Positions 11,546 to 62,600 of a stretch of 64,000 nucleotides of DNA are shown in pieces (positions within the stretch are counted from its first letter, which is position 1; every line of letters starts with the position of its first letter). The stretch comes from Daphnia carinata (taxonomy: Eukaryota), in contig NC_081331.1 of NCBI RefSeq assembly GCF_022539665.2, positions 10,788,001 to 10,852,000 on the forward strand. The letters run 5' to 3'. Below the pieces are notes generated by a model. The model was given only the letters and a program-made list of their open reading frames with translations. It searched no databases and was not told the DNA's origin. Made by a program: the position numbers and the translations under genes.

Positions 11546-12242
11546 TTAATAGATTTTGAAGCCCTTTCCGTTGAAGGGAATGTGGACTGGGGCAACTGGG
11601 AGAACGTATTCGTGGACGGGGGCGACGGGGAGAACGTATTCGTGGACGGGAGCGACTGGGAGCTCGTAGACGTGGACGGGGGCAACCGGCAAGTGGTCAC
11701 CCTTGGGTTGGAAACCGGCCTCATCAGCAACCCAGGTCAAAGTGAACTTCTGGCCCTCAGGGGAAATCCAGTAGGAAGATCCCTTGTTGGTGTTGCCAAA
11801 GACTTCCGCGGTGTATTCTTTGCCATAATCATCGACGGTAGTGACAGTGAATTTCTTTTGCTCCTGGGCTTCCTCACGGGTGGTGTAGTCAGACTGGGCG
11901 TAGCTATGGCAAGAAAATTACCATGTTTCTTTTAGAATTTTGCGGAGGTTTGAATGGCAACAGAGAGAGCTGTAAGTGAAAACATAAAAACATACTTCCA
12001 CTTTCCGCTGCCATCAACGTTACGCTCGTCGGATTGACCAGTAACTGTGATCTCGGGGTATTTGTAGTCCTTCTCGTACGATTTTTCGTACGGCTTGTAA
12101 CTGGATGGAGCGGCGGCAGCGATGGCCAACACGGCGGCGATAACAAACTATGGGAAAATTATAAAGATATTTTAGTTAACCAGTATGAATCGCATACTGC
12201 AGTTAAACAGGAGCTAAGAGTGTTATTTTTTACCAGCTTCAT
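11546..12242 (-). CDS. RR-1-like cuticle protein, type B copy 1 (3 exons) with VAPVHEYVLP repeats
   Basis: MKL|FVIAAVLAIAAAAPSSYKPYEK...ERNVDGSGKWN|YAQSDY...KGSSYWISPEGQKFTLTWVADEAGFQPKGDHLPVAPVH...KIY*; TATA at about 12299-12305 (-). Confidence 0.95.
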
Positions 12243-13200: not shown

Positions 13201-13942
13201 CTAATAGATCTTGAAGCCCTTTCCATTGAAGGGAATATGGTCGGGAGCAACTGGGAGAACGTATTCGTGGACGGGTGCGACGGGGAGAACGTACTCATGG
13301 ACTGGGGCCACTGGAAGTTCGTAGACGTGGACGGGAGCAACGGGCAAGTGGTCACCCTTGGGGTGGAATCCAGCGTTATCAGCGACCCATGTCAAAGTGA
13401 ATTTCTCGCCTTCAGGAGAAACCCAGTAAGAAGATCCCTTGTTGGTGTTGCCAAAGACCTCTGCGGTGTATTCCTTGCCGTAGTCATCGACAGTAGTGAC
13501 GGTGAATTTCTTTTGCTCCTGGGCTTCCTCACGGGTGGTGTAGTCAGACTGGGCGTAGCTATAATATCATGCAAATTACGCGATTTCTTTTAGCATTTTG
13601 CGGAGGTATGAATGACAACAGAGAGAGCTGTAGGTGAAAACGTGAAAACATACTTCCACTTTCCGCTGCCATCAACATTACGCTCGTCGGATTGACCGGT
13701 GACGGTGATCTCTGGGTATTTGTAGTCCTTCTCGTACGTCTTTTCGTACGGCTTGTAGCTGGACGGAGCTGCTGCAGCAGCGGCGATGAGGACGACGACG
13801 ATGAACTATACAAAATCGAGTTGCAGAAAACAATCTTGATAAGAACTTAAGAAAACAAATGTAGGCTAATACATCTTCCAAAACTTGATAGTAAGAAATT
13901 CTATATTGAGAATCAGCATAGAGTCTAACTTACGAATTTCAT
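13201..13942 (-). CDS. RR-1-like cuticle protein, type B copy 2 (3 exons)
   Basis: MKF|FIVVVLIAAAAAAPSSYKPYEKTYEKDYKYP...GSSYWVSPEGEKFTLTWVADNAGFHPKGDHLP...; same exon structure as B1; TATAAA at about 14001-14006 (-). Confidence 0.95.
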
Positions 13943-15415
13943 GTTGGGATTGTTCGATTGGCTGTGAGCAACTGATACCTTTTGCTTGATAAATTTTTTA
14001 TTTATACTTTTGGAACCAATAACCTGCGTTCTAGTTTTGATATACACACTTGAATATGAGGTACTTTCTCGTAGGAATTCGAACATTCTCCGTGACTACA
14101 TGTTGACTAGATTTATTAGATAACCACCCAAGGTATTTCCTACAGGCCATAACCCTCATGCCACTGTTACCTTCAAACAATATTACTAGACGCTGTAAAT
14201 CCTAGCTTTCCCTTGACTCATCATACACACATAGTTTTTGGAGAGAGCTGTTTAGAAATGTTTGTCTTTGAACTTGTTCTTCGCATTATTTTCCAGAATA
14301 TAGGAATCAATTCTTGATGAGGAAAGGGTATCCATTCTTGGTATTGCCCGATAAGTACATTGCCAGTAATCCACGCCTAGGTTTGTAGTAAGTAAAGTAA
14401 GGGCATACTGTAGTTTCTTGTCGTGGACGGGAAAATAAAAGTTGGTCGACTTTATTAGAGATAGAGCGAGCACTTTGAAAAGTAGAACAACCTAGTTAGA
14501 AATTACCATTTTATTCAATGCCACGACCCTTTCACTTGGCATACTATTTTTTCAAGTCCAAGAAAATTGTCGGTGATTTTTCAAACAAGGGCTCGATCGA
14601 ATGACATAGAATGAAACCGCATTAACCCGTCAGAAAGTAAGGCAATTTTTTTTTAGTACGCTGGCCGTGATAGATGGGCTAGTACGGGCCAAGTTCCAAT
14701 GATGGAAATTTTGCAGCGCAACTTGATTTTAATTTTTGGAAGTGAACTAAAGAACAAATGGCTGGATCACGTAGAACTGTTTGAGCGAAAGTGAATTTTA
14801 TTGTAACCCAGTTTATTGTAAATCACAGCATAAAGACATTTCGCTTGAAATTATTGGTAGAGGTATAGAACGATTTGGATATGACCTTTTACTTTTAGAA
14901 AATGACGTGCATAGATTTTAAACACCTTTGATTTTCATTTTTTTTTTCTTGACGTGTTTGTATTGGCTGAATTCTTGCCATACATGGACATTCCTTTTGA
15001 CACGTAGTGTATTGAGTCTTCCAGGAATTGCTATAACAGTGTTATAGACGTGCATTGTTTATTGCTGTTCTCCATGGACAACTGGCGATAAGTCGAAGTC
15101 AGTAAAAGTACAAGTCGACCCTGAAAGTCGTGGAATTTACAATTACAATAAGCAACGTCTTCCCATCTTCGTGGCCTAAAATAAGATTCTTCTTGAGGAA
15201 GATATTGCTGTTGCTGGCCATAAATTTCTCCTTTCGCTCATCTCCATATGATGCAACGCCTCCAACTAAAGAAGAGAACGTATGCAGTGGAGGTCTCGCA
15301 ACCACCTTTCGTGTGGCTTTGTAAAATATAAAAGATGGGTCGAGTTGGAAACATCTTCACTCTCGTCTCTTCTCTGTCTCCAGTTAAGCAGCAGAACCTT
15401 CCAATATCTAAAAAA

Positions 15416-15943
15416 ATGAAATTCGTAAGTTGCAATTCAGTTTTGTAATAGTTAAAATTATACCTTCTTTTGATATTTGCAATTTATATTTTATTTACAA
15501 TGACAGATCATCGCTCTTGCTTTCTTGGCCGTGGCACTTGCTGCACCTCAAGGAGATAAGAAGCCCATCGAAATTGTGTCATCCAACAGCGAAATGAACG
15601 CCGATGGCAGTTACTCCTTCAAGTAAGTAAACATTCAATGCCAAGTATGATAGACCCAATTCAATGGTCAAACTTATGCTTCACCAGTTTCGAAAGCGCT
15701 GACGGAACTAAGGTTCAAGAAAGTGGAAGCCAGAAACAAGTTGGACCTAAACCCGAGGATATCGGCACCGTTTCCAAGGGATCTTATTCCTACACTTCCC
15801 CTGATGGCGTCGTCATCACCGTCAACTGGGTTGCAGATGAGAACGGTTTCCAGGCTACCGGTGACCATTTGCCCACTCCTCCCCCGATGCCCGCTCACGT
15901 CGTCAAGCTCCTTGCTGACTTGAAAGCTGCCGGTGCTTTGTAA
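15416..15943 (+). CDS. RR-1 cuticle protein, type A copy 2 (3 exons)
   Basis: Near-identical protein to A1: MKF|IIALAFLAVALAAPQGDKK...GSYSYTSPDGVVITVNWVADENGFQATGDHLPTPPPMPAHVVKLLADLKAAGAL*; TATA 15327-15333. Confidence 0.95.
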
Positions 15944-16860
15944 ACAATTCAATTTCAGTTTTTCAATTTTGTACGTATGTCCATACTGCCCACGATTTCT
16001 TACACTTCCCTGAAAATACAGCATAAATTTTGTCATCCTTGTGTCATACAACAATTTTCTCTACTCTATAAAAAAAACAAGAAGAAATGGGGAGGAGTTT
16101 TGTTTGTCCGTCGGTACGTAAGCCGACGGGCAGGGATAGCAGCGGCTTTGCAAAATAATTTTGTCTATTTTAAATATTATTTAATGTTACTTTTACTTTT
16201 TTTTTTAAACATGTTATATAATAACAAAGATTCGAACCTGTGATGTCAGCATGGCAGCCGCAAACTATGCCTAAGCGCCTTCCTTCAGTCTATTTTTATA
16301 TATATAAGCTGCCTATTTGAATGGATATTCCAAGTCCTCACTTCCCTCCAATGCTCTCCTCCCTCCCACCCCTCCATACCATCATTCAAGATTCTTCATC
16401 TCATCGGATTACTACACAACATTCAGCTACTTCCTTGCATCTGATTAGCAAGATTCTACATTCTCATCGCTTCGGACATCATCTACACCAACGCTGGATA
16501 TCCCTTCAAGAAAAAAGAAGAGCCATGCCTACTAAAAAAGGGGCTAAAAATGGCAGAAGAAAAAATCGATCTGTAGTACCGTTCACTACATTGAAGATCT
16601 ACCCATAAACTCGTAGGTCGTAGGTTGTTCGTAAGTCTCCCCATGGCCACTAGGTTCATGCATGCAGGCAGCTAATCATCGGGGTATGTGACCCCCTTCG
16701 ATACCGTTTTGTTTTCTTTACTGTGTCTAACACCAGTAGGGCGTACAGTAGTGTGGCTAGCAGGTTAGTAGGTAGGTAGGCTAATTTATTCTTATAACAC
16801 TAAGCGATTTAATAACACAGTGTATTTATTAGTTATCCAGGCATGTTCTTTGCGAACAAA

Positions 16861-19246
16861 TCACAGCGAAACGTCCTGATCGAAGGAAAGGCTGTAGCCT
16901 TGCTGTTTCTTCATGATATCCAACTTGGTCAAGATTTCCATGACTATCAACCTGCTGTCGTGACTGATATCACACGCTGCCACGTTTTTGGCGAAGAAAG
17001 ACTTGATTTGAGGGCCCTGTGCTAAATACGTCTGAAGCACGCCGATGCAGTGGTTTATTCTATCAGCTGGATCCCAAGGTGGTCGACAATTTTTCATGTA
17101 ATGAAACAAACAGGTCTTCAGCGCATAAGACGATGGACTGGTCTTTCGTTGGATGGTATGTTCCACACCATCTCGATGAGGATTCTTTCGATGGTTAGCC
17201 ATCAGAACGAAGAATTTAAGGAGACGGAGTACTCGAGAGACATCCGGGAAACACGACTGATGGAGGAAGACGTCACGTTCTAAAGCGAAATGCGACACTT
17301 TCCATCGACCTCGTTCATTGCGCCTGTATGGGACCAAATGTCGCTCTCGTACCTCGTTTTGCTGAGCATTTAATTTGCACAACACGTCGGGTAAATGAGG
17401 TGCTCCAGTATCTTGAAAGGGACCACCGTTAATACCAGTCAACGTAACAACCAAACTCAAATCGATACTGATTTTCATCGGTTTTTCTCGTCGCCCGCGA
17501 TAGACAAACGTCAACGTCACGCACGTCTCAGAAAGAGAAACGACTGGATGGAAAAACCGGACGTTCCATATTCGACTGCTAGCTTCTTCGATAAGCGATT
17601 TGTAATAGAACAATAGACGGCCCGAGCTGATAAAGTAGTCGGTGTAAAATGCATCAACTTCTGCATTTTCTTTAGCAAAAACGACACCGACGTCTGTACT
17701 GCTGCCTGATTCTTGTGCTAGCGCTGAAAAATGTTTCAACGGAATACCGAAATCAAATTCATTAGCCGCAAGGATATCACTTCGTTCAGCCCAACTACCG
17801 TATTCGATCAGTGGCCCGCTTTCGAAACGGTCGTCTAGCTCTCGTATGGTGTCGATTAGACTGTTCAAATACTTGCGAACATGGCGAAAGATGATGCACC
17901 AACGGCAAGAATGAAGGCACTGCCAGTGAGAATGTTCGCTCAGGTAAAATTCCACTTCATCCAAACTGAGTTTATCTTTTTGCCAAGCACTGGCCATCCA
18001 TCGCCAATTATCTGGTTCTGGAACTGGTTTCAGGTCGTGTTCTGACGATACTATCGAGCAAGACCGAAGAGGCATGAGTTTCTCATGGATAGATGGTACG
18101 AATTTTGTGAATTTCACCCGTCGGATTGGTTTGGAGATGGTTTCGGATTCATTTTGGTTGTAAACAAAGAATTTGTCGAATTGCCATGTTGGCTGACATT
18201 GTGGACACAACGTTGTTGAATTGTAACACACTTCATTCAGGTAATCCGTAGCTGATTTGCCTTTATCGCTGTGGCACTGATAAGAACTTATTTCACTAAA
18301 ATAGTACGTCCATTCCTGACACCCGAGCTTGGCCATGTTCAACACGGATTCATCGTTCCACACTAAACTTTTCCAGTCTGAATGGCGATGGGACATCATC
18401 CACGTACAGGCCGAATGGAAATCTCCGCAAGGATTGAAAAGCATTAGTTCTAATGCGTGGAGTTTTTTGTAAGTTTGACAGTGGATGTCAACACCATTCT
18501 CGACGAGTAACTGGAAAATGGGCAGCAATTTTCCACGTTGACTGTAATAGCGACACAGAATATGAAGGACGTTCCAGCCTTCTAAATCTCTGGCTTCCAA
18601 GTTGATCTTGTGACGAATCATCAGGTGAAAAAATTGAATGAGATCGGTACCCTGATAGAATCGAGCCAGATAGTGAAGAACATTCCAACCTTCTAAGTCG
18701 GTGGCTTGAACGTTCGCTCCATTTTCCAAAAGCAATTCCATGATTGGCAATAATTCTTTTGACTGGTTAAATCGCGCTAAATAATGTAACACTCCCCATC
18801 GTTTGCGGTCGGTTACGTTCAAATCCACTTTGCTGTCAGTCAGGGCCTTGATTGAACGAATTAAACTAGGTGTCTGATTGAAACGGCACAGAATATGCAA
18901 AGCTCTGTTGCCATTGGCATCGGTATCGTTGGCATTGGCTCCATATATCAAAAAAAGACGGATCAGTTTGGCCAACGAATCGTTTTGGTTCTTCCAGCAC
19001 ACCCAAAGAAGTACAGTCCATCCGTTGCTACGGATGTTCACGTCTGCACCACCACGAAGCAGATTTGCCACCCGGTTAAAACTGACAGCCTCGTGAGCCG
19101 ATTTCTTGCACAGCGACCATAATTCGACGTCTTTCTAAATTTTTGACAAAGTTTGTAATAACATATTTCAACGTTTTGTTGGTATTGTAAAAAAAAAAAA
19201 AAAAAAATCACTGTACCTTGTTTTGTGGTTGCTGAGCTGCGGCCAT
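16861..19246 (-). CDS. Ankyrin-repeat plus Mab-21/cGAS-like nucleotidyltransferase (cGLR-like), about 767 aa
   Basis: Exon 1 19246-19217 (MAAAQQPQNK), phase-0 intron 19216-19135, then one 2274-nt exon. About six 37-aa ankyrin repeats (GWNVLHYLARF-type), then YGSWAERSDILAANEFDF (GS...EFD), ISIDLSLV, WKVSHFALERDVF, VLRLLKF, SSYALKTCLFH, WDP, IKSFF: ordered Mab-21 motifs. Confidence 0.88.
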
Positions 19247-20294
19247 TGCATTAGCTTAACTGAGATTTACACTAGCAACAAGATAACCTTAGATTTCAAT
19301 GCCAAGTTAGAGTTCTTACCCGTTTAGAGAGCCAAGCGCACTTTCGTGGTGTCGGACGACTTGTCAGTTGTTTCATAATAAAATTATAAATTTTAGGTAA
19401 TTATCGCATATCGTGAGTATTTACCCATAGCTTAAGCCGTTGTAGTTATCTACAAGTGACGTACATTTGCATCACAGTATGCAGGAGCATTAAAAAGAAT
19501 CGACGCAAAAAACACTTGATACGGTGCTTATTCAGAGTTTTTATCAGAACAAGTAATAAACTTGCATCGTAGTATAAGCTACATAAGAAACGCTTTATTC
19601 TTTTTCTTCGTTATAATTTTTTCGTTTCCAAGTTTTACTCGATAAAACATTTCTGTGTTGAATGAAAATAATAGTGTTGCTCTTGATGTCTGTTCACTGG
19701 TGACCAGTCTAATTTAAAATGTTGGCAAAAGTATGTTATTATAGGTATTTTTATTTTAATCTTTGCGAACGAAGTACTATTGGCATTTCCAAATTTACGG
19801 TGCAAGTTCAATGAATATCATAAGCACCGCAACTAGCAAAGGTTTGTTAGCCAGCTAGTCGCCAACAAGAGACAAGCCAAATCTGGCCAAATACACAAAC
19901 TGTAAAACTTGTTAGGATGCTGTTTATCCTATTTTTATTGATTGTAGCCCGAGTTCTTAAATCTAGCTTAATGGCTGCCGTATAGTTTTGGCGTCTCAAC
20001 TTTGTTCGTCTTTTATTCATTAATGACCAAACATATTGAGATAAACACTTGACAAGACAGTTAGCTCGTTTATTGTCAAGTAAGTTTTGTAAAAAAATTA
20101 TCAATCTTCTTTTTAAACAACAAAATTCGAGACTGAATGCACTTTGCGCAGCGAATTAATTGCTTTTACTTCTGACAGAACTGTCATTACCTCGAAGCTT
20201 CTTCATTTGGTCATAAGATTTTTTTTGTTTTTGTTGCAGGCTGTTGCTGTTAGAGTTTACAAAAGCAGAAATTAACTGCTAAGTAATCTCAAAA

Positions 20295-23200
20295 ATGTCA
20301 AAACGACCTTCGGAAGAGTCACAGACTGGAGCCAGCTCAGGTCCTCAATGTAAAAAGGTTCAGTTTGAACCTATTAGGCTTGGTGCAATTTCTTCATTGG
20401 AGGAAATGGACATGAAAGTTCTTCAGTTTCAGAACAAAAAACTCTCACAGGTAACAAATAAAATATAATTGCTTTAGTTTGCACTATAATGTTTACCTGT
20501 CATAGCGTTTGGAACTGAGGCAAAGAACCGAAGCAGAGTTGAGACAAAGGATTGAGCAGCTGGAGAAGCGCCAGATGCAAGATGATGCTGTGCTTAATGT
20601 CATTAACCGTTATTGGAATCAACTGAATGAAGATGTCAGAATTCTTTTACAAAGATTTGATGCTGAAACTGCTGATGAAAATGAAAGCAAAAGTACAAAA
20701 CATGGCAGTTTTATAGTTCTCAGATACTCAGAATTCATATGGCTACATTCTAGATGAAAGTGAAGCGACAACATCTTTTCTTGCATTGCTTTCCACCTGG
20801 GACAAGGATGAACTCGACGAAAAACTTGCCAATCGAGTTTTAGTATCGCAACGGGCTGTTGCAAAGCTAATTAGGGCTTTTGACAGACTGCTGCAAAGAA
20901 ACGAAAAAGTTACACAAGCTCTAAAAGGAGAATCTGATAATGGTCAGCTATAGGTTAGCAGATTATTTTTCAAGTGGCTGATATATTTTTTTAAATAGGT
21001 GAAGTTGCCAATCTAGAAGAAGCCATCAAGCAGGTTAATACCGAAATTCAAGCCGAAAACAGCAATCTCCATGTACTGAATACTTCACTTCATGAAAAAA
21101 ACCATGCCATTTCTCTGAAGGTAAAATTTATTCCATTTCTAACTTTTTGCATTTCCCACCACATCCATTTGTGCTTTAGTTGAAAGAGATGCAAGAGCAA
21201 CTCACAGCGAAAGAAACCGAAGCGGCGGAGCTGCAAAACAGAGTAGATGATTTGGATTACGAACTGCAAAAACGAAGACAACGAGCCGACTCGTTGGAAA
21301 ATCACTTGGCAGAAGCGTTGGAAAAGATTAAAGTTCTTCAGCAACAACCTGGTGTTCAAGTGGAAGCTGAAAAATCTTCCGGTAGCAAAGTGGTCTCGGT
21401 GTCCCAGAAAAAGGTACTGAATTATTTTGTTTGAAAAGTGAGTTGGCAATCAATACCGAAGTTATATTAAAAACAGATGGAAGATCAACATAAAGAATTG
21501 GAAGAACAGAGAGAAATGGCCACAAATCGTTTAGCTGAACTCGATCGTCTTCATCAGAATCACAGAGACGTATTACAGCAACTAGAACACCTCAAGATGG
21601 ATGTAATACCGCTAATTATCCATTTTAACATAAAAAATTGGCAAAAATTAAAAATTCGTTATATTTCAGATTCGCCAGTTGCCTGAGTCCGTCGTTGTAG
21701 AGACCACCGAATACAAGTGCCTGCAGTCGCAGTTTTCAGTGCTCTATAATGATTCCATGGGCCTCAAAACGCAGTTGGACGAGGCTCGTCAGCAGTGGCA
21801 CACAGCGAAAAATGCTCATCTTCGTCAAATCGAATTGATGGAGGTAATTTTTAACCATACCGTGTTTACCATCCTAATTCCTTTTACTAAATATGCTCTG
21901 TTATTCCTCGCAGAGTGACGAGTTATTGAGGCAGAAGCAGTTGCGAACGGAAGTCATTCAACTAGAGGACATGCTGGCCCAGGTGCGCAAGGAATACGAG
22001 ATGTTACGCATCGAGTTTGAACAACAATTGGCGGCCAATGAGCAAACGGGACCCATTAACCGCGAAATGCGTCATCTCATCACATCTTTGCAAAACCACA
22101 ACCAACAGCTGAAAGGCGAAGTTCACCGGTACAGGAGGTCAGTATGCGGGATGTATAGACACATAAAATCAAACAGGGTCTTGCCGTCTAACCTTGAATT
22201 CTCCACCAATCATGGTGTCTTTTGAGAAGGAAATATAGAGAAACGAGCGGAGAACTAGCCAAAACTAAACGAGAATTAGAAGAAACCCAGGCCAAGGTTC
22301 AAGCACTTCAAGAAATTCGCGATGCCCGTGACGCCGACGCTGCCGCGCAACGAGAAGCAGCCGAAAACGCTGATGCCTCAGATTCCATGGGTCTACCTGG
22401 CGATGTGATTGACCCAAGTCTCGTCAAAGATGACCCGGAAATCAAAAGAGAACCAGATGATGACTCTGCCGCAGACGATATAAAAGATGACATTGGTGAC
22501 ATTAAAAAGGAAAAATGTGACATTAAAAAAGATTTGTCCGACACCAAACCAGATCCAGCTGTTTTGGCTGCAGCTGCGGCCAAGATCAAAGAACAGAAAA
22601 ATGCCGAAGCTGAAGTCGTTCGCGATCTTAAAGCCCAGCTTAAGTATGTTGATTAATATTTAGTGAAGTTCAAAATTACGTCTGGTTTTTATTATTTTCT
22701 TGCTGTCTACTCTGCAGAAAAGCGCACATTGATCAAAGGGAAATGAAGCTTCTTCTTGATATGTATAAAGGTGTTGGTAAAGAGACTCGAGATAAAACAC
22801 AGCTGATGGCGGCCGAGCGAAAAGCTCGTCTCGAAATCGATGATCTGAAACAACAGTTGAAAAAGATGCAAGCCAGCTCTGAAAGTAAACGCGAAGAACG
22901 GAAACGTCTAGCCGATGACGAGGCTGTTCGTAAAATTCGTTCACTTGAAGAAGTGGTTCACCAGTTGCAAAAGCAAGTGGCGGCCCAGAAACAGGAAGAA
23001 GAAGCTCTTTTGAATGAAATGGAAGTAACTGGGCAGGCATTTGAGGACATGCAGGAACAAAACTCTCGACTTATTCAACAGTTGCGCGAAAAAGATGACG
23101 CCAACTTTAAACTGATGTCGGAGCGCATTAAAGCCCAACAAGTTCACAAATTGCAAAGAGAAGAGAAAGACATGCTCGTTGAACAGGTTGGTTTCGTTAA

Positions 23201-23899
23201 AAATTGATTTTAAAAAATTTAATCTTAATTAGTAGCACTATTTGTTCTAAAGGTTTCGACGTTGAATATGCAAGTGGAGGCTCAAAACCAAGTCGTTCGA
23301 CGGCTAGAAGAAAAAGAACGTCTGCTCCAGAGTAGCATTTCCTGTGCCGAAAAAGAGCTGATGCTTAGACAACAGGCCATGGAGATGCACAAACGTAAGG
23401 CTATCGAGAGTGCCCAATCAGCCGCTGATCTTAAACTTCATTTAGGTACTAACCGTTGATATTCTGTTTAAATTGAAGACCATCTTGCTATTCGTGTTAT
23501 TTACTTTTGTATCTTCTGCCTATAGAAAAATATCACTCCCAGATGAAGGAGGCCCAACAAGTAGTGGCTGAAAAGACGGGCACACTTGAGGCGGAGGCTT
23601 ACAAGACGCGCCGGTTGCATGAAGAGCTAGCGCAATTGAAGCGCCGCGTTGAGCGACTCAAGAAGATTGAAGCGGCCGGAACCGCGGACGAAGTTCTTCG
23701 TGAAGAACTACGCGAATACAAGGATACACTTACGTGTCCTTCGTGTAAGGTGACGCGTAAAGACGCCGTCCTAACCAAATGTTTCCATGTTTTTTGCTTC
23801 GACTGTCTCCGCACACGGTACGAAACGAGGCAAAGGAAATGTCCCAAATGCAATGCAGCTTTTGGAGCAAATGACTATCACAGACTTTATTTGTCGTGA
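20295..23899 (+). CDS. Bre1: E3 ubiquitin ligase Bre1 (RNF20/RNF40 homolog), multi-exon
   Basis: MSKRPSEE...[89 protein letters not shown]-terminal [60 protein letters not shown]. Confidence 0.97.
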
Positions 23900-25167: not shown

Positions 25168-26688
25168 ATGTTACGGAAAATTGCACTTCTGATCTGCCTG
25201 GTGCCAACCTCTCTAGCCATTCCTCGTAAGTAATTTTTTTTTGTGTGTGCTATTTCCCAATGTACACCTGATGTATATTTTGTTTGTGCAACTTTGCTTT
25301 AATACGAAGCAATTGATAATTCAACAACAATTGGGGGGATCTAACTTATCGCGAATGTCCGATCATTGTCAGGTCCAAACGTTCCGGAAGGATCAGAGAA
25401 CGATGTGTCCATTTGTTCGCTGCCCCCAGTCAGCCAGGGCACGAAGAAATGCCGGGGTTTCTTCCCACGCTGGACTTACAACGCCGAAACAAAATCCTGT
25501 ACGGGGTTCTTGTATGGCGGTTGCGGAGGCACGGATAATTTGTTCCTAAGCGAATTCGCCTGTCTGGCAAGATGCAATCAACAGGGTAAGCAGTGACATC
25601 GGTGCTTCGTTTGCTACTTTAACACTATTAATCATTAACTTCCGTTTCAATTTCAAACTTTTTTAAAGGACTGGAGAAGCTTATCAAACAAAGTGATCCT
25701 ACTTCACGGTGCATGCAACCAAAAGCCGAAGGTCTTTGTCGGGCAGTCATTCCGAGTTTCTATTTTGACGTGCAAACTGGCAAGTGCACGCTTTTCGATT
25801 TCAGCGGCTGTCACGGAAATGACAACAGATTCGCCACGGAAGAGGAATGCGAGCAGGCATGTTACCACTACCCAATCTATTGGCAAGACACCGGCAATCC
25901 TCTTTCAACTATTACTTCTACCGGAGTAACTGATTTAGGTACATTAAATGTTTTAATTTTCGTCAATTTCACTAGTCTGAATGGCTTACGCTACACCAAC
26001 ACATTCAGCTGTTTTCATTTTCTTGTTTTTGATTTGCTTTTAGGTAGCGACAACAAAGACGTCCATGGTGAAAAGCTGGACGTTTGCTCGCTACGAGTTG
26101 TAAATCCAGGGCCAAAAAGATGTAAAATCAATACTCAAGGGCGTTGGACGTACAACAGCAAAACAGGAAGATGCGATCAGTTCGAGTACATACCTTGTTC
26201 CAGCGTTGATCCACCGAATTTATTCTTAAATGAATTCGCTTGTTTGGCCAGATGCAATGAACAAGGTACACCTCTCGTAGTTTAAATCATTTTGGGTGAT
26301 AAATATTTTTAGAATTTGGCAAACCATTTAGGACTAAAGAAGCTGATTGATTCAAGTGATCCTTCGTCGCCCTGTATGCAGCCAAAAACTGCCGGCAATT
26401 GCCGTCTTTTCATTCCTAGATTCTTCTTTGATAAGCAAACTGGAAAGTGCGAATCGTTCGTATACACCGGTTGCGGTGGTAACGACAATAACTTCAAGTC
26501 GCAAGAGGAATGTTATCTCAAGTGTAACAATAATGGCTCACTAGAAGAATCTGACTCAGTTACGGTCAATTATGCTGCAGGTACTATTTCGTAAATTAAA
26601 AGTCCACAACTACAGTACGTTAGATTTTGAATCACCTCTGGTTTTTCACTTTCTAGGTACAGGTAATGTTGAAGTCCTTGAAGCTTGA
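25168..26688 (+). CDS. Secreted four-domain Kunitz/BPTI-type protease inhibitor
   Basis: Signal peptide MLRKIALLICLVPTSLAIP; four six-cysteine Kunitz domains on separate exons (e.g. CRGFFPRWTYNAETKSCTGFLYGGCGGTDNLF; CRLFIPRFFFDKQTGKCESFVYTGCGGNDNNFKSQEEC); last exon GTGNVEVLEA* stop 26686-26688. Confidence 0.9.
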
Positions 26689-46072: not shown

Positions 46073-50220
<4,148 letters not shown>

Positions 50221-59600: not shown

Positions 59601-62600
59601 TCTTACTAAAAATAACAGACCCCCGAAAACAATGGCATTCAAAAGTCCCCATTTTCTTTTCTTGCATAAAATAATGCAATGGGCCAGTAGTGAAGGATTT
59701 ACGCTAGTTAAACACGGAAGAGGTTTTTGAATGCCTTGCCAGCGGCACTCGTGGCTTGGCTGTATCCGCACCACTAATAACAACGGCAATAATTTAAAAA
59801 AAATAATAAATAAATAAATAATTATTATTTTGCGTTAATGCGTTGGATATCGTAAGCGGTCCCTTTCTATTTGATTGTTAATAGAGTCTATATAACACGT
59901 CACGCTTGACATTATTCTTCTCTCCCCGCTTAGCGAAGTGTTACAATCCTGAACTACTATTCCTAACAAGGTGAACCATTCCGTGAACCGGTTATTGTGT
60001 GACATTATTTAAATTAAATTCCATTTTACCGCTAACGTATTCTTTATGTGGTAAGGCAAATGAAAATAACTTCCTTCAAATAATTCTGTCTAACGAACGG
60101 ATGAGTCGTCCGCACCTCCTTCTACTACCTATCATTTCTCTCGTCTTCTTCTTTCTGCTCCCGTTTTTTTTTTTTTTTACACGCACGTTATGCACCAGCC
60201 GGACGACGACATCTACAACAAAGTGCTGATCGGTGATGGTAATAAGCCACGAACGGCTCCGTTAGCTCGACGAAGAGCGCCTCAGTACACCAATCAACCG
60301 CAACAGAATGCACGCCCTCTTCAGCAGCGCGATACGCGTCGTCCAGTAGGTCCAGCACCAACAAAAATTGTAGCACCTGCCAACCGACTGCAATCTTTTC
60401 CCGCATTCTATTCACGCTCCGTTCCTGTCCGTCACTTCAACAGAGCCGTTTAGAGTAACACCCGAACGTTACGATCTTCTCTATTAGTTTTTTTTTTTTT
60501 TTTTACCTTCACACGCTTTACTCAGTTTTCCAACAGCATAGAGTTATTAAGTACTTTATATAAATAAAAAAAAATACTAAAAAAAAAATAATAATAATCG
60601 AGAAATGTTTAGCGAAGAGGTTTTTTCTTTGTTTCCGTTAGCTTGTTATTATTCTCATCCTTCTTCACTCGCTATCCACTTTGTACGTGTGCGTGTGTGT
60701 GTGTTTGTAAAAGAAAGAAGAAAGACACACTTTGAAGCTGAAATAAAGCTGGTCTTTTTTTCCAACCTGTTTGTTTCTTCGTCAACCTGTTCTTTTCCTT
60801 TTTTTTTTTTTTTTTCAAGATTTACGTTGCCAACTGTTCCACAACTCGCCCAGCCCATCGGTTCCGTTTACATTTTTGTTGTTGTTGTGTGTTCATTTTC
60901 TTTTTCTTTTTTGTTTAAGAAATTCACCCGGTCACCTCTAACTGTAAATTTTTTCTCTTTTTTTTTTGGTTCATTGGTCGACCTTGTCTTGATTTACGTG
61001 AATTTAGGCGAAGCTCAATTGTGAAGTGCTCTGGGATGACTTGGCGCTCGAGGTCCGCTGGGCGGTGGCCGGAGAGACTATCGTCCTGCAATTGGTCGGC
61101 AAAATTGGTACACCTCTTTCTGTTGCTCTCGATTTATTTCTTTTTTTTTTTAGGCTTTTTTCATGAAAATAAATTTTGTTTTGACTATTTCCGTATAGAT
61201 GACGGACAATATGTGGCGTTCGGACCCAGTGGCGATTCAAAAAGAACTAGGATGATCGGTGCTGACGTGGCTGTTGGTTGGTTGGATCGTGAGAGTGGCA
61301 AAGGCTTTGTTCACGATCATTACATGACATCGAAATCGGCTTGTACGGCCGGAAAGGGAGTGTGTCAGGATACCCAGTCCGCTCGTGGAACCAACAATAT
61401 CCGACTGCTCAATGCTGCACTCGTCAATGATTACGTCATGCTGACTTACCAAAGGCCCCTCAAGGCACAGGATGAACAGGACAAAAGCATCATCACCAAT
61501 GGAACCCAGGCCGTCATTTGGGCTGTTGGACCACTCAGTTCAGACAATGAACCCACTTACCATAAACTCAGGAATAAAGGTAAGCATTCATTTGTATGCT
61601 AATAGTCTTGTGTTGACCGTTACATTAATTTTGTTTTTTTTTGTTTTTGTTTTTTTCATTTCCAGGTGATTTATTAATCGATTTTGGACGGTCACCTTTC
61701 TGGAACTGTCCGGCTCCGGAAGATCCGTCAGCAACGTCTGGTTCGGTTACCGTTCCATCTGTTCAACGACGACCGACCACAGAAGACAATCGCTGGTCTT
61801 CTTTAGATGGCAATTCAGTCGCACCCAATACCCAATTGTTGGCCAAGTACCAACCACCTCAACCACCTTCCCAACCTTCTCCACCCGCCGTGTCTAACAA
61901 AGTACCTTGGTATATCCCAGCTATCGAATGTAACGAACCTGAGAATCACGTCTATTACGCTCATCTTGGTCCGAACGGTGGCAGCCAAGGTTACAACGCC
62001 ATTACAGGTATAAACCAGTTAACTGAATCGTGAGATAGATCACATTATCAAAATGAGCGTGTTGAATATTTCATTGATTTAACGATGACAGGCAATCTTG
62101 GCTGGGGAGTTTCGTGGTTCATTAACGGATTACTCATTCCCGAAGTGACTGTCGTTCGTGGCGAGACTTACACATTTGTGGTAGAAGGTGGCCAAGACCC
62201 AGATCGCCCGTCTCGTTATCATCCATTCTACATTACAGATGATCCTGAAGGTGGTTATGAATTCAAAACACCCGACGAGAGATCTGTAAGCGACTTGCCA
62301 TTAGAAACATCAAAGACACAAATAATAAAATCAAAACTGATTATACTCTCCGTTTGCAGAAAATCAGAATATTTGCTGGTGTAACTTACGACCGTGATGG
62401 CAATCCCGTTTCATCGGCCCAGGGCCGCCTGTGTGAATGGGTCGAAGATCCTACCCAACCGGCCGACAAGTTCACCTCGTTCGGAGCTTATCAGAGAACA
62501 TTGAAACTTCATTGTGAAGAAGGTGAACCAGCCATTATGCAATTTAAGCCGGACGTAAACACACCTGACACGGTTTACTATCAGGTTTGTTTGTTTTTGT

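What the first reader, a model, noticed from the sequence alone, without database searches (positions are those of the whole stretch)
16861..19246. Ankyrin-repeat-fused cGAS-like receptor (ANK-cGLR) with an apparently intact active site
Seen: about six N-terminal ankyrin repeats, a Cys/His-rich linker, a long helix ending DDRF, then GSWAERSDILAANEFDF (GS at about 17794-17799; E-F-D at 17752-17760), a third acidic residue in ISIDL (17461-17463), and the Mab-21 C-lobe motifs WKVSHF..E, LRLLK, SSYALKT.LFH. Established: this is the motif order of cGAS/Mab-21 nucleotidyltransferases; cGLRs make cyclic dinucleotides that signal to STING, and ankyrin fusions occur in some invertebrates. Inference: a catalytically competent pattern-recognition enzyme in a crustacean whose ankyrin array may sense or gate on a protein ligand rather than nucleic acid. 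It would probably be auto-annotated only as an ankyrin protein.
Basis: partly seen in the sequence, partly recalled or inferred. Interest (0 to 1): 0.88.

Follow-up and report, generated by a model that had tools for sequence, protein, structure and literature searches.

The report
Water-flea ankyrin-fused cGAS-like enzyme
This water-flea gene joins an ankyrin-repeat array to a cGAS-like enzyme domain whose catalytic residues are intact, and it likely makes an immune alarm nucleotide when the ankyrin groove binds a conserved trigger, offering a predicted test case for how such sensors detect things other than DNA or RNA.

Summary
Observation confirmed. The two-exon gene (19246-16861, minus strand) encodes the 767-aa Daphnia carinata protein XP_057375718.1, filed as uncharacterized; Pfam sees only ankyrin. 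A clade profile hits human cGAS at E 7e-16 with the GS, E-x-D and third Asp in register, and the model's best fold matches are cGLRs and cGAS (Z 21-24). The triad is intact in 38 of 38 family rows that cover it. ANK-cGLR fusions are already published (Li 2023), as are eight Daphnia paralogs, but this gene is not among that catalogue's nine Daphnia rows. New here: a His/Cys knuckle, likely binding zinc, splits the spine helix in every full-length member; the ankyrin groove is a near-invariant Trp/Arg/aromatic ladder, which argues against a fast-changing pathogen ligand; the same ankyrin subtype follows IRE1-like kinases; one sub-clade swaps ankyrin for a signal-peptide-like leader. Best reading (0.45): an ankyrin-gated cyclic-dinucleotide synthase signalling to STING. 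Activity, product and ligand are untested, and 'protein rather than nucleic acid' is not shown, since the core is basic (pI 8.6). New variant of a known kind; interest 0.5.

The parts
19217..19246 (-). Coding exon 1 (ATG plus 9 codons)
   Evidence: matches the first 10 residues of P0001
19135..19216 (-). 82-nt phase-0 GT..AG intron
   Evidence: contigs of a close relative in 3 of 4 runs join 19125 to 19276 with 72 letters in place of 150, which fits loss of this intron
16861..19134 (-). Coding exon 2, 757 codons plus stop
18430..19035 (-). Six canonical ankyrin repeats (aa 44-245) with a conserved Trp/Arg/aromatic groove (W49, W57, R94, W123, R131, W160, R168, W197, R205)
18175..18429 (-). Degenerate ankyrin-like helices (aa 246-330) with invariant C282 and C320-x-x-C323
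   Evidence: (16 of 16 rows)
17836..17964 (-). Spine helix of the cGLR domain in two halves (aa 401-410, acidic; aa 421-443)
   Evidence: cGLR structures align from residue 396-400
17896..17934 (-). His/Cys knuckle (H411, H413, C416, C420, C423) that splits the spine; predicted zinc site
   Evidence: 38 of 48 family rows; the 10 misses are 153-291 aa pieces
17794..17799 (-). GS loop (G456, S457), preceded by Y455
17752..17760 (-). Catalytic E469-x-D471
17461..17463 (-). Third catalytic acid D568
16897..17304 (-). C-terminal helix bundle with K622, R630, K650, Y680, K683; no cGAS-type zinc thumb
   Evidence: (Mab-21_C E 0.066)

Best explanation
The gene encodes an ankyrin-fused cGAS-like receptor with an intact catalytic triad, which likely makes a cyclic dinucleotide for the water flea's STING when its ankyrin groove engages a conserved trigger. 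Shown: gene structure, fold, intact triad, conserved groove, knuckle inside the spine helix. Inferred: (1) the triad binds Mg/Mn and joins two NTPs, as in cGAS and cGLRs; (2) the ankyrin solenoid and the knuckle-hinged spine hold the enzyme off until the groove is occupied; (3) the trigger changes slowly in evolution, most likely a conserved host or pathogen protein or peptide (about half of this reading's weight), otherwise a polyanion such as RNA or an oligonucleotide; (4) the product, most likely a cGAMP isomer, activates STING.
For: A profile of six clade cores hits human cGAS at E 7.1e-16 with GS, E-x-D and the third Asp aligned; 39 of 39 hits listed are cGAS or cGLR1 chains. VIA-align of the domain model: Cv-cGLR1 Z 24.4 (rmsd 3.4, 320 aligned), mouse cGAS 22.0, Tc-cGLR 21.9, Sp-cGLR1 21.0, MAB21L1 16.9, best TUTase 13.7. 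Triad intact in 38 of 38 rows covering all five positions; K650 45 of 45, Y680 44 of 44, K683 44 of 44, R630 basic in 45 of 45 covered rows (rows include near-duplicates). Groove positions: 14 of 18 invariant across 10 orthologs against 73 of 184 other ankyrin positions, permutation p 0.0014. Ankyrin region dN/dS about 0.08 against L001. Full-length model pTM 0.79, compatible with a defined domain arrangement. Spliced contigs spanning ankyrin and enzyme parts in runs X1 and X11. One STING gene each in D. magna, D. pulex, D. galeata. Six of Li's 15 active cGLRs needed no added nucleic acid, and the authors propose non-nucleic-acid ligands.
Against: No activity measured. Y455 stands where Li's motif has Q/T, and none of the 15 active cGLRs printed has an aromatic residue there; the gap to the third acid is 94, beyond the stated 50-90. 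The one Daphnia clade member screened (KZS11295.1, a signal-peptide-type paralog) is not among the 15 selected actives, which is not proof of inactivity. Core pI 8.6 fits plain nucleic-acid sensing. Three shrimp Mab21 proteins made no cGAMP and acted through IKK-epsilon. Paralogs with signal-peptide-like leaders keep the triad, which is hard to square with cytosolic STING signalling for the whole clade. The groove test is not corrected for relatedness or for Trp/Arg being generally conserved. STING was not checked in D. carinata itself.
Confidence: 0.45

Rival explanations
1. It is an ordinary nucleic-acid-activated cGLR (most likely dsRNA); the ankyrin array only localises it or recruits a partner.
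For: Core pI 8.6-9.0 against Li's >8.5 rule; 9 of 15 characterised cGLRs respond to dsRNA or dsDNA; R630 and R647 fall on cGAS K384 and K411 in the alignment (cGAS numbering and DNA-contact roles recalled).
Against: The first half of the spine is acidic (4 D/E, no K/R in aa 399-412) and the spine is split by the knuckle; position 647 is basic in only 17 of 45 covered rows; core pI ranges from 5.7 to 9.2 among full cores of the family.
Confidence: 0.25
2. It is an active nucleotidyltransferase with a non-immune job or a non-messenger product (for example NMP transfer to a protein or RNA held by the ankyrin groove).
For: Slow evolution and a conserved gene model across Daphnia species; aromatic residue before GS as in RNA-tailing enzymes (recalled); Atlas leads under 0.9 show ankyrin fused to poly(A)-polymerase-like domains; housekeeping neighbours.
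Against: The fold ranks cGLR/cGAS at Z 21-24 and TUTase/PAP at 13.7 or less; the best Atlas hit is an ankyrin plus Mab-21-like cluster at 0.96.
Confidence: 0.12
3. It signals without catalysis, as a scaffold that activates an IKK-epsilon/TBK1-type kinase, like shrimp Mab21 proteins.
For: Shrimp LvMab21-1/2/3 bind and activate IKK-epsilon and made no detectable cGAMP; ankyrin arrays usually bind proteins (established).
Against: The shrimp proteins are described as lacking canonical residues, whereas the triad here is intact in 38 of 38 rows down to about 30% identity.
Confidence: 0.1
4. It makes an oligonucleotide messenger that is read by the same ankyrin subtype, on itself (feedback) and on the expanded IRE1-like kinase-ankyrin proteins: a water-flea parallel of OAS-RNase L.
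For: Ankyrin ORFs of this subtype follow a kinase ORF in 5 of 13 loci scanned, best PDB match IRE1 in 2 of 2 tested; the ankyrin exon opens at an in-frame AG before the capping helix in 8 of 10 loci viewed; RNase L binds 2-5A through ankyrin W60, K89, F126, E131, R155 (mutant list); RNase L aligns over residues 10-341 of the model.
Against: RNase L scores Z 14.2, below several unrelated ankyrin proteins (up to 16.1); the kinase loci were fetched by the ankyrin motif, so their likeness is partly built in; no RNase domain was seen between kinase and ankyrin exons (by eye); the Arg-aromatic pair is variable in those repeats.
Confidence: 0.08

Closest known systems
ANK-fused cGLRs of cnidarians and molluscs (Li et al. 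2023, PMC9980059)
   Same: Ankyrin array N-terminal to a cGLR core with full triad; described as a minority architecture; nearest Atlas cluster, score 0.96, commonest Mollusca among 4 with a record.
   Different: Crustacean, shorter (767 aa), different ankyrin subtype, His/Cys knuckle in the spine. Whether the fusions share one origin was not tested.
Daphnia cGLRs in Li 2023 Table S1 (KZS11294.1, KZS11295.1 and six others)
   Same: Same clade: same knuckle, GS/E-x-D/D motif and C-lobe motifs in the printed rows; database counterparts fall in my tree.
   Different: Those have degenerate ankyrin or signal-peptide-like N-termini; this gene's orthologs are not among the nine Branchiopoda rows and lie on the other deep branch, about 30-35% identical.
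cGAS, Cv-cGLR1, Sp-cGLR1, Tribolium and Drosophila cGLR1
   Same: Fold and catalytic register.
   Different: No ankyrin array in these structures; cGAS has a C-lobe zinc thumb that is cut short here; Tyr before GS.
RNase L ankyrin sensor
   Same: Ankyrin array of similar length with Trp/Arg/aromatic groove residues; IRE1-like kinase partner domain in relatives of the array.
   Different: No special structural or sequence preference for RNase L; here the array is fused to the synthase.
Shrimp LvMab21-1/2/3 (PMC12928593)
   Same: Crustacean Mab21-fold proteins.
   Different: No ankyrin mentioned, lack canonical residues, act without cGAMP.

Membership tests
cGLR (Li 2023 criteria) | Conserved GS loop, two-acid strand and third acid | tested here: met
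   G456/S457, E469/D471, D568 align with cGAS; 38 of 38 intact. Departs from the literal string: Y for Q/T and spacing 94 for 50-90. Li's own list holds YGS paralogs and only 1 of 15 actives has T there, none Q.
cGLR (Li 2023 criteria) | [quoted passage not shown] | tested here: met
   Profile positions 54-325 of 351 match cGAS at E 7e-16; Pfam alone misses it (Mab-21_C E 0.066).
cGLR (Li 2023 criteria) | Predicted structural homology to cGLR/CD-NTase enzymes | tested here: met
   Z 24.4, rmsd 3.4, 320 residues to Cv-cGLR1; Foldseek E 5.9e-14 to cGAS.
cGLR (functional) | Ligand-triggered cyclic dinucleotide synthesis | not testable with these tools
   Needs enzyme assay.
cGLR (functional) | STING present in the same genome | not testable with these tools
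   No genome held; one STING each in three congeners.
vertebrate-type cGAS | C-lobe zinc thumb | tested here: not met
   The thumb loop is a gap in the alignment; H635 and C638 are not kept across the family.
MAB21L developmental proteins | Degenerate active site and closest likeness to MAB21L1 | tested here: not met
   Triad intact; MAB21L1 Z 16.9 against 24.4; Daphnia has a separate mab-21 gene.
TUTase / non-canonical poly(A) polymerase | Best fold match to TENT enzymes | tested here: not met
   TENT chains are listed at Z 13.7 or less, about 10 units below cGLRs.
RNase L-type nucleotide-binding ankyrin | Oligonucleotide binding in the ankyrin groove | tested here: inconclusive
   Full-length alignment but no better than other ankyrin proteins; binding untested.

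The most novel reading that the evidence does not exclude
Water fleas evolved an OAS-RNase L-like circuit from cGLR parts: this clade makes a nucleotide messenger, and one ankyrin module, moved as an exon between cGLRs and an expanded family of IRE1-like kinases, is its receptor, giving product feedback on the synthase and a STING-independent output, while a sister sub-clade became secreted cGLRs.
Probability: 0.08. Interest if true: 0.9.

Novelty: new variant of a known kind. Interest (0 to 1): 0.5.

Why it matters
What activates cGLRs that do not respond to DNA or RNA, and what fused ankyrin arrays do, are open questions raised by Li 2023. This gene is compact, conserved across Daphnia species and sits in a genetically tractable host-parasite model, so ankyrin-deletion, groove and knuckle mutants make the question directly testable. 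It also shows that the published catalogue missed a deep Daphnia branch that Pfam labels as ankyrin only.

Tried and rejected
Pfam Mab-21 search: no hit on the whole protein and only Mab-21_C E 0.066 on the C-terminal part; single-sequence PDB search gave only E 0.27 and 0.42. A single-sequence search for shorter relatives found none, but the profile search found 29. No second copy of the core in the window; neighbours are cuticle proteins and a RING-finger gene, no Rfam hit in 14000-23000. Diversifying selection on the ankyrin groove: rejected, it is the most conserved part. The first groove count was one residue out of register and was redone. dS was saturated outside the ankyrin region, so those ratios are not used. 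A closer look at the splice joint was not obtained; it rests. Papers: no paper held any of six accessions or locus ids of this gene and its orthologs; none held Daphnia + Mab-21 + ankyrin; cGLR + ankyrin gave 7 papers and cGAS + Mab21 + ankyrin + nucleotidyltransferase 3, only Li 2023 relevant by listing; Daphnia + cGAS + STING and Daphnia + ankyrin + immune listings were off-topic; PMC3710099 passages say nothing on Daphnia kinase-ankyrin genes. Three look-ups of earlier scan findings were empty.

Full report
Gene. The minus strand holds a 757-codon frame at 19134-16861. An ATG at 19246 opens a 10-codon exon, followed by an 82-nt GT..AG intron in phase 0. The spliced product is P0001, 767 aa, named in the database as uncharacterized protein LOC130696631 of Daphnia carinata, XP_057375718.1. 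Contigs of a close relative (about 92% identical) from public runs cover 16849-19125 in one piece in X1 and X11, and 3 of 4 runs laid show a joint that fits removal of the intron; only X11 is on record as RNA, and contigs do not give expression level.

Fold. Pfam reports ankyrin only and a sub-threshold Mab-21_C match (E 0.066). Single-sequence PDB search gave two weak hits, 4jlx and cGLR1 8gjy. A profile of six clade cores (A3) hits human cGAS at E 7.1e-16 over positions 54-325 of 351, aligning GS, E-x-D, the third Asp, the W-x-x-S strand and the S-Y-x-x-K helix. AlphaFold2 models have pLDDT 79.5, pTM 0.79 (full length) and 80.0, 0.82 (domain). Foldseek gives cGAS at E 5.9e-14. VIA-align against 48,161 chains ranks Cv-cGLR1 (Z 24.4, rmsd 3.4, 320 aligned), cGAS (22.0), Tc-cGLR (21.9), Sp-cGLR1 (21.0), MB21D2 (19.9), MAB21L1 (16.9), OAS1 (16.8), TUTases 13.7 or less. 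The Atlas agrees (0.96 to Mab-21 clusters). The motif alone would not suffice: 120 of 5000 shuffles carry a relaxed version.

Family. Two searches gave 16 and 29 relatives; every member with a species name is Daphnia, the rest are unnamed records. Orthologs occur in D. magna, D. sinensis, D. pulex and D. galeata. Of 48 rows examined (with near-duplicates), 38 cover all five catalytic positions and all 38 are intact. A tree of 39 rows (9 short pieces dropped; midpoint root; long-branch warning) has two deep branches, both with ankyrin-bearing members. One derived group has degenerate ankyrin (own-profile E 1e-9 to 1e-15 in 8 rows) and, nested in it, a group with no ankyrin, TGS in place of YGS, and hydrophobic leaders in 5 of its 8 rows. 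The simplest reading is that the fusion is ancestral in this clade; without a root this is inference. D. carinata has at least one more member, LOC130702585.

(a) cGLR structures align from residue 396-400, so helix 401-410 is the first half of the spine. It is acidic and is separated from helix 421-443 by H-S-H-x(n)-C-x-W-C. This knuckle is in 38 of 48 rows, the 10 misses being 153-291 aa pieces; all 38 have a further Cys or His in the loop, including the 6 that lose the first His. A zinc site is inferred, not shown. In cGAS the spine is the nucleic-acid-sensing lever (recalled), so a metal-pinned break there is a plausible hinge. The cGAS zinc thumb is absent. (b) C282, C320 and C323 are invariant in 16 of 16 ankyrin-bearing rows and may form a second site. 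(c) The ankyrin array has six canonical repeats plus a cap and degenerate repeats to about residue 330. At the three groove positions per repeat that designed ankyrins randomise (positions recalled), it carries a Trp/Arg/aromatic ladder; 14 of 18 are invariant in 10 orthologs against 73 of 184 elsewhere (p 0.0014, uncorrected for relatedness or residue type). The ankyrin region is as conserved as the enzyme or more so, with dN/dS about 0.08 against L001. This points to a slowly changing ligand rather than an arms-race target. (d) Of 14 metagenome loci matched through ankyrin only, I scanned chosen frames of 13; 5 have a kinase frame just upstream, IRE1-like in 2 of 2 tested. The ankyrin frame begins at an in-frame TAG acceptor-like site in 8 of 10 loci viewed, cGLR and kinase types alike; frames were defined from a stop, so part of this is expected by chance.

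Mechanism. Most likely (0.45) an ankyrin-gated cyclic dinucleotide synthase upstream of STING. Fold, triad, groove and knuckle are shown; catalysis, gating, ligand and STING coupling are inferred. Against it or neutral: Tyr before GS is not seen in the 15 active cGLRs; spacing to the third acid is 94; core pI 8.6 fits nucleic-acid sensing, although the first spine half is acidic; the one clade member screened was not among the selected actives; shrimp Mab21 proteins act without cGAMP. Rivals: plain dsRNA sensor 0.25, non-immune or non-messenger transferase 0.12, catalysis-free scaffold 0.10, OAS-RNase L-like circuit 0.08.

Prior knowledge. Li 2023 (PMC9980059, preprint version; I read sections 5 and 6, search passages, and matching rows of supplementary files 1-5, not the whole files) defines cGLRs, reports ankyrin fusions in a minority and in Stylophora, lists nine Branchiopoda rows, eight from this clade and one mab-21, and one STING per Daphnia species. 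This gene's orthologs are not among the nine rows, although KZS08674.1 carries the same APZ42 locus-tag series as two rows that are. No screen row is described as ankyrin, which does not show that no ankyrin-fused core was tested; the journal version's supplements may differ and were not seen. For PMC12928593 I saw the abstract and passages, for PMC5927464 and PMC3710099 passages only, and for all other papers search listings only.

Verdict. A real, conserved, uncatalogued ANK-cGLR. The architecture is known; the spine knuckle, the invariant groove, the ankyrin subtype shared with IRE1-like kinases and the leader-bearing sister group make it a new variant. Interest 0.5.

Noticed in passing
L005:618-2162, L009:411-2434, L011:277-1779, L017:3-1065, L018:542-1920: IRE1-like kinase exons followed by ankyrin repeats of the same subtype as this gene, with no RNase domain seen between them; looks like an expanded family.
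   Followed up: partly
proteins P0129, P0130, P0132, P0133, P0140: cGLR paralogs with signal-peptide-like N-termini and an intact triad; a secreted or lumenal cGLR would be unusual.
   Followed up: partly
proteins P0018 and P0021: Two D. magna gene models (LOC116915823, LOC123470049), nearly identical, on contigs of the same 19.07 Mb length: recent duplication or assembly redundancy.
   Followed up: no
protein P0107: A 1622-aa D. pulex model joins a different ankyrin protein to an ANK-cGLR; possibly two merged genes.
   Followed up: no
window 11546-11914, 13201-13563, 15560-15940: Cluster of cuticle-protein (Chitin_bind_4) exons next to the gene's 3' end.
   Followed up: no
window 21878-23899: Coiled-coil and RING-finger exons resembling a Bre1-type ubiquitin ligase (name recalled), transcribed away from the cGLR gene.
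   Followed up: no
window 35471-36274: 267-aa frame with a PurA-like match (E 2.3e-7) and a divergent C-terminal half.
   Followed up: no
window 25713-26285, 46525-47109, 61036-61602: Kunitz, C2-domain and DOMON exons; ordinary.
   Followed up: no
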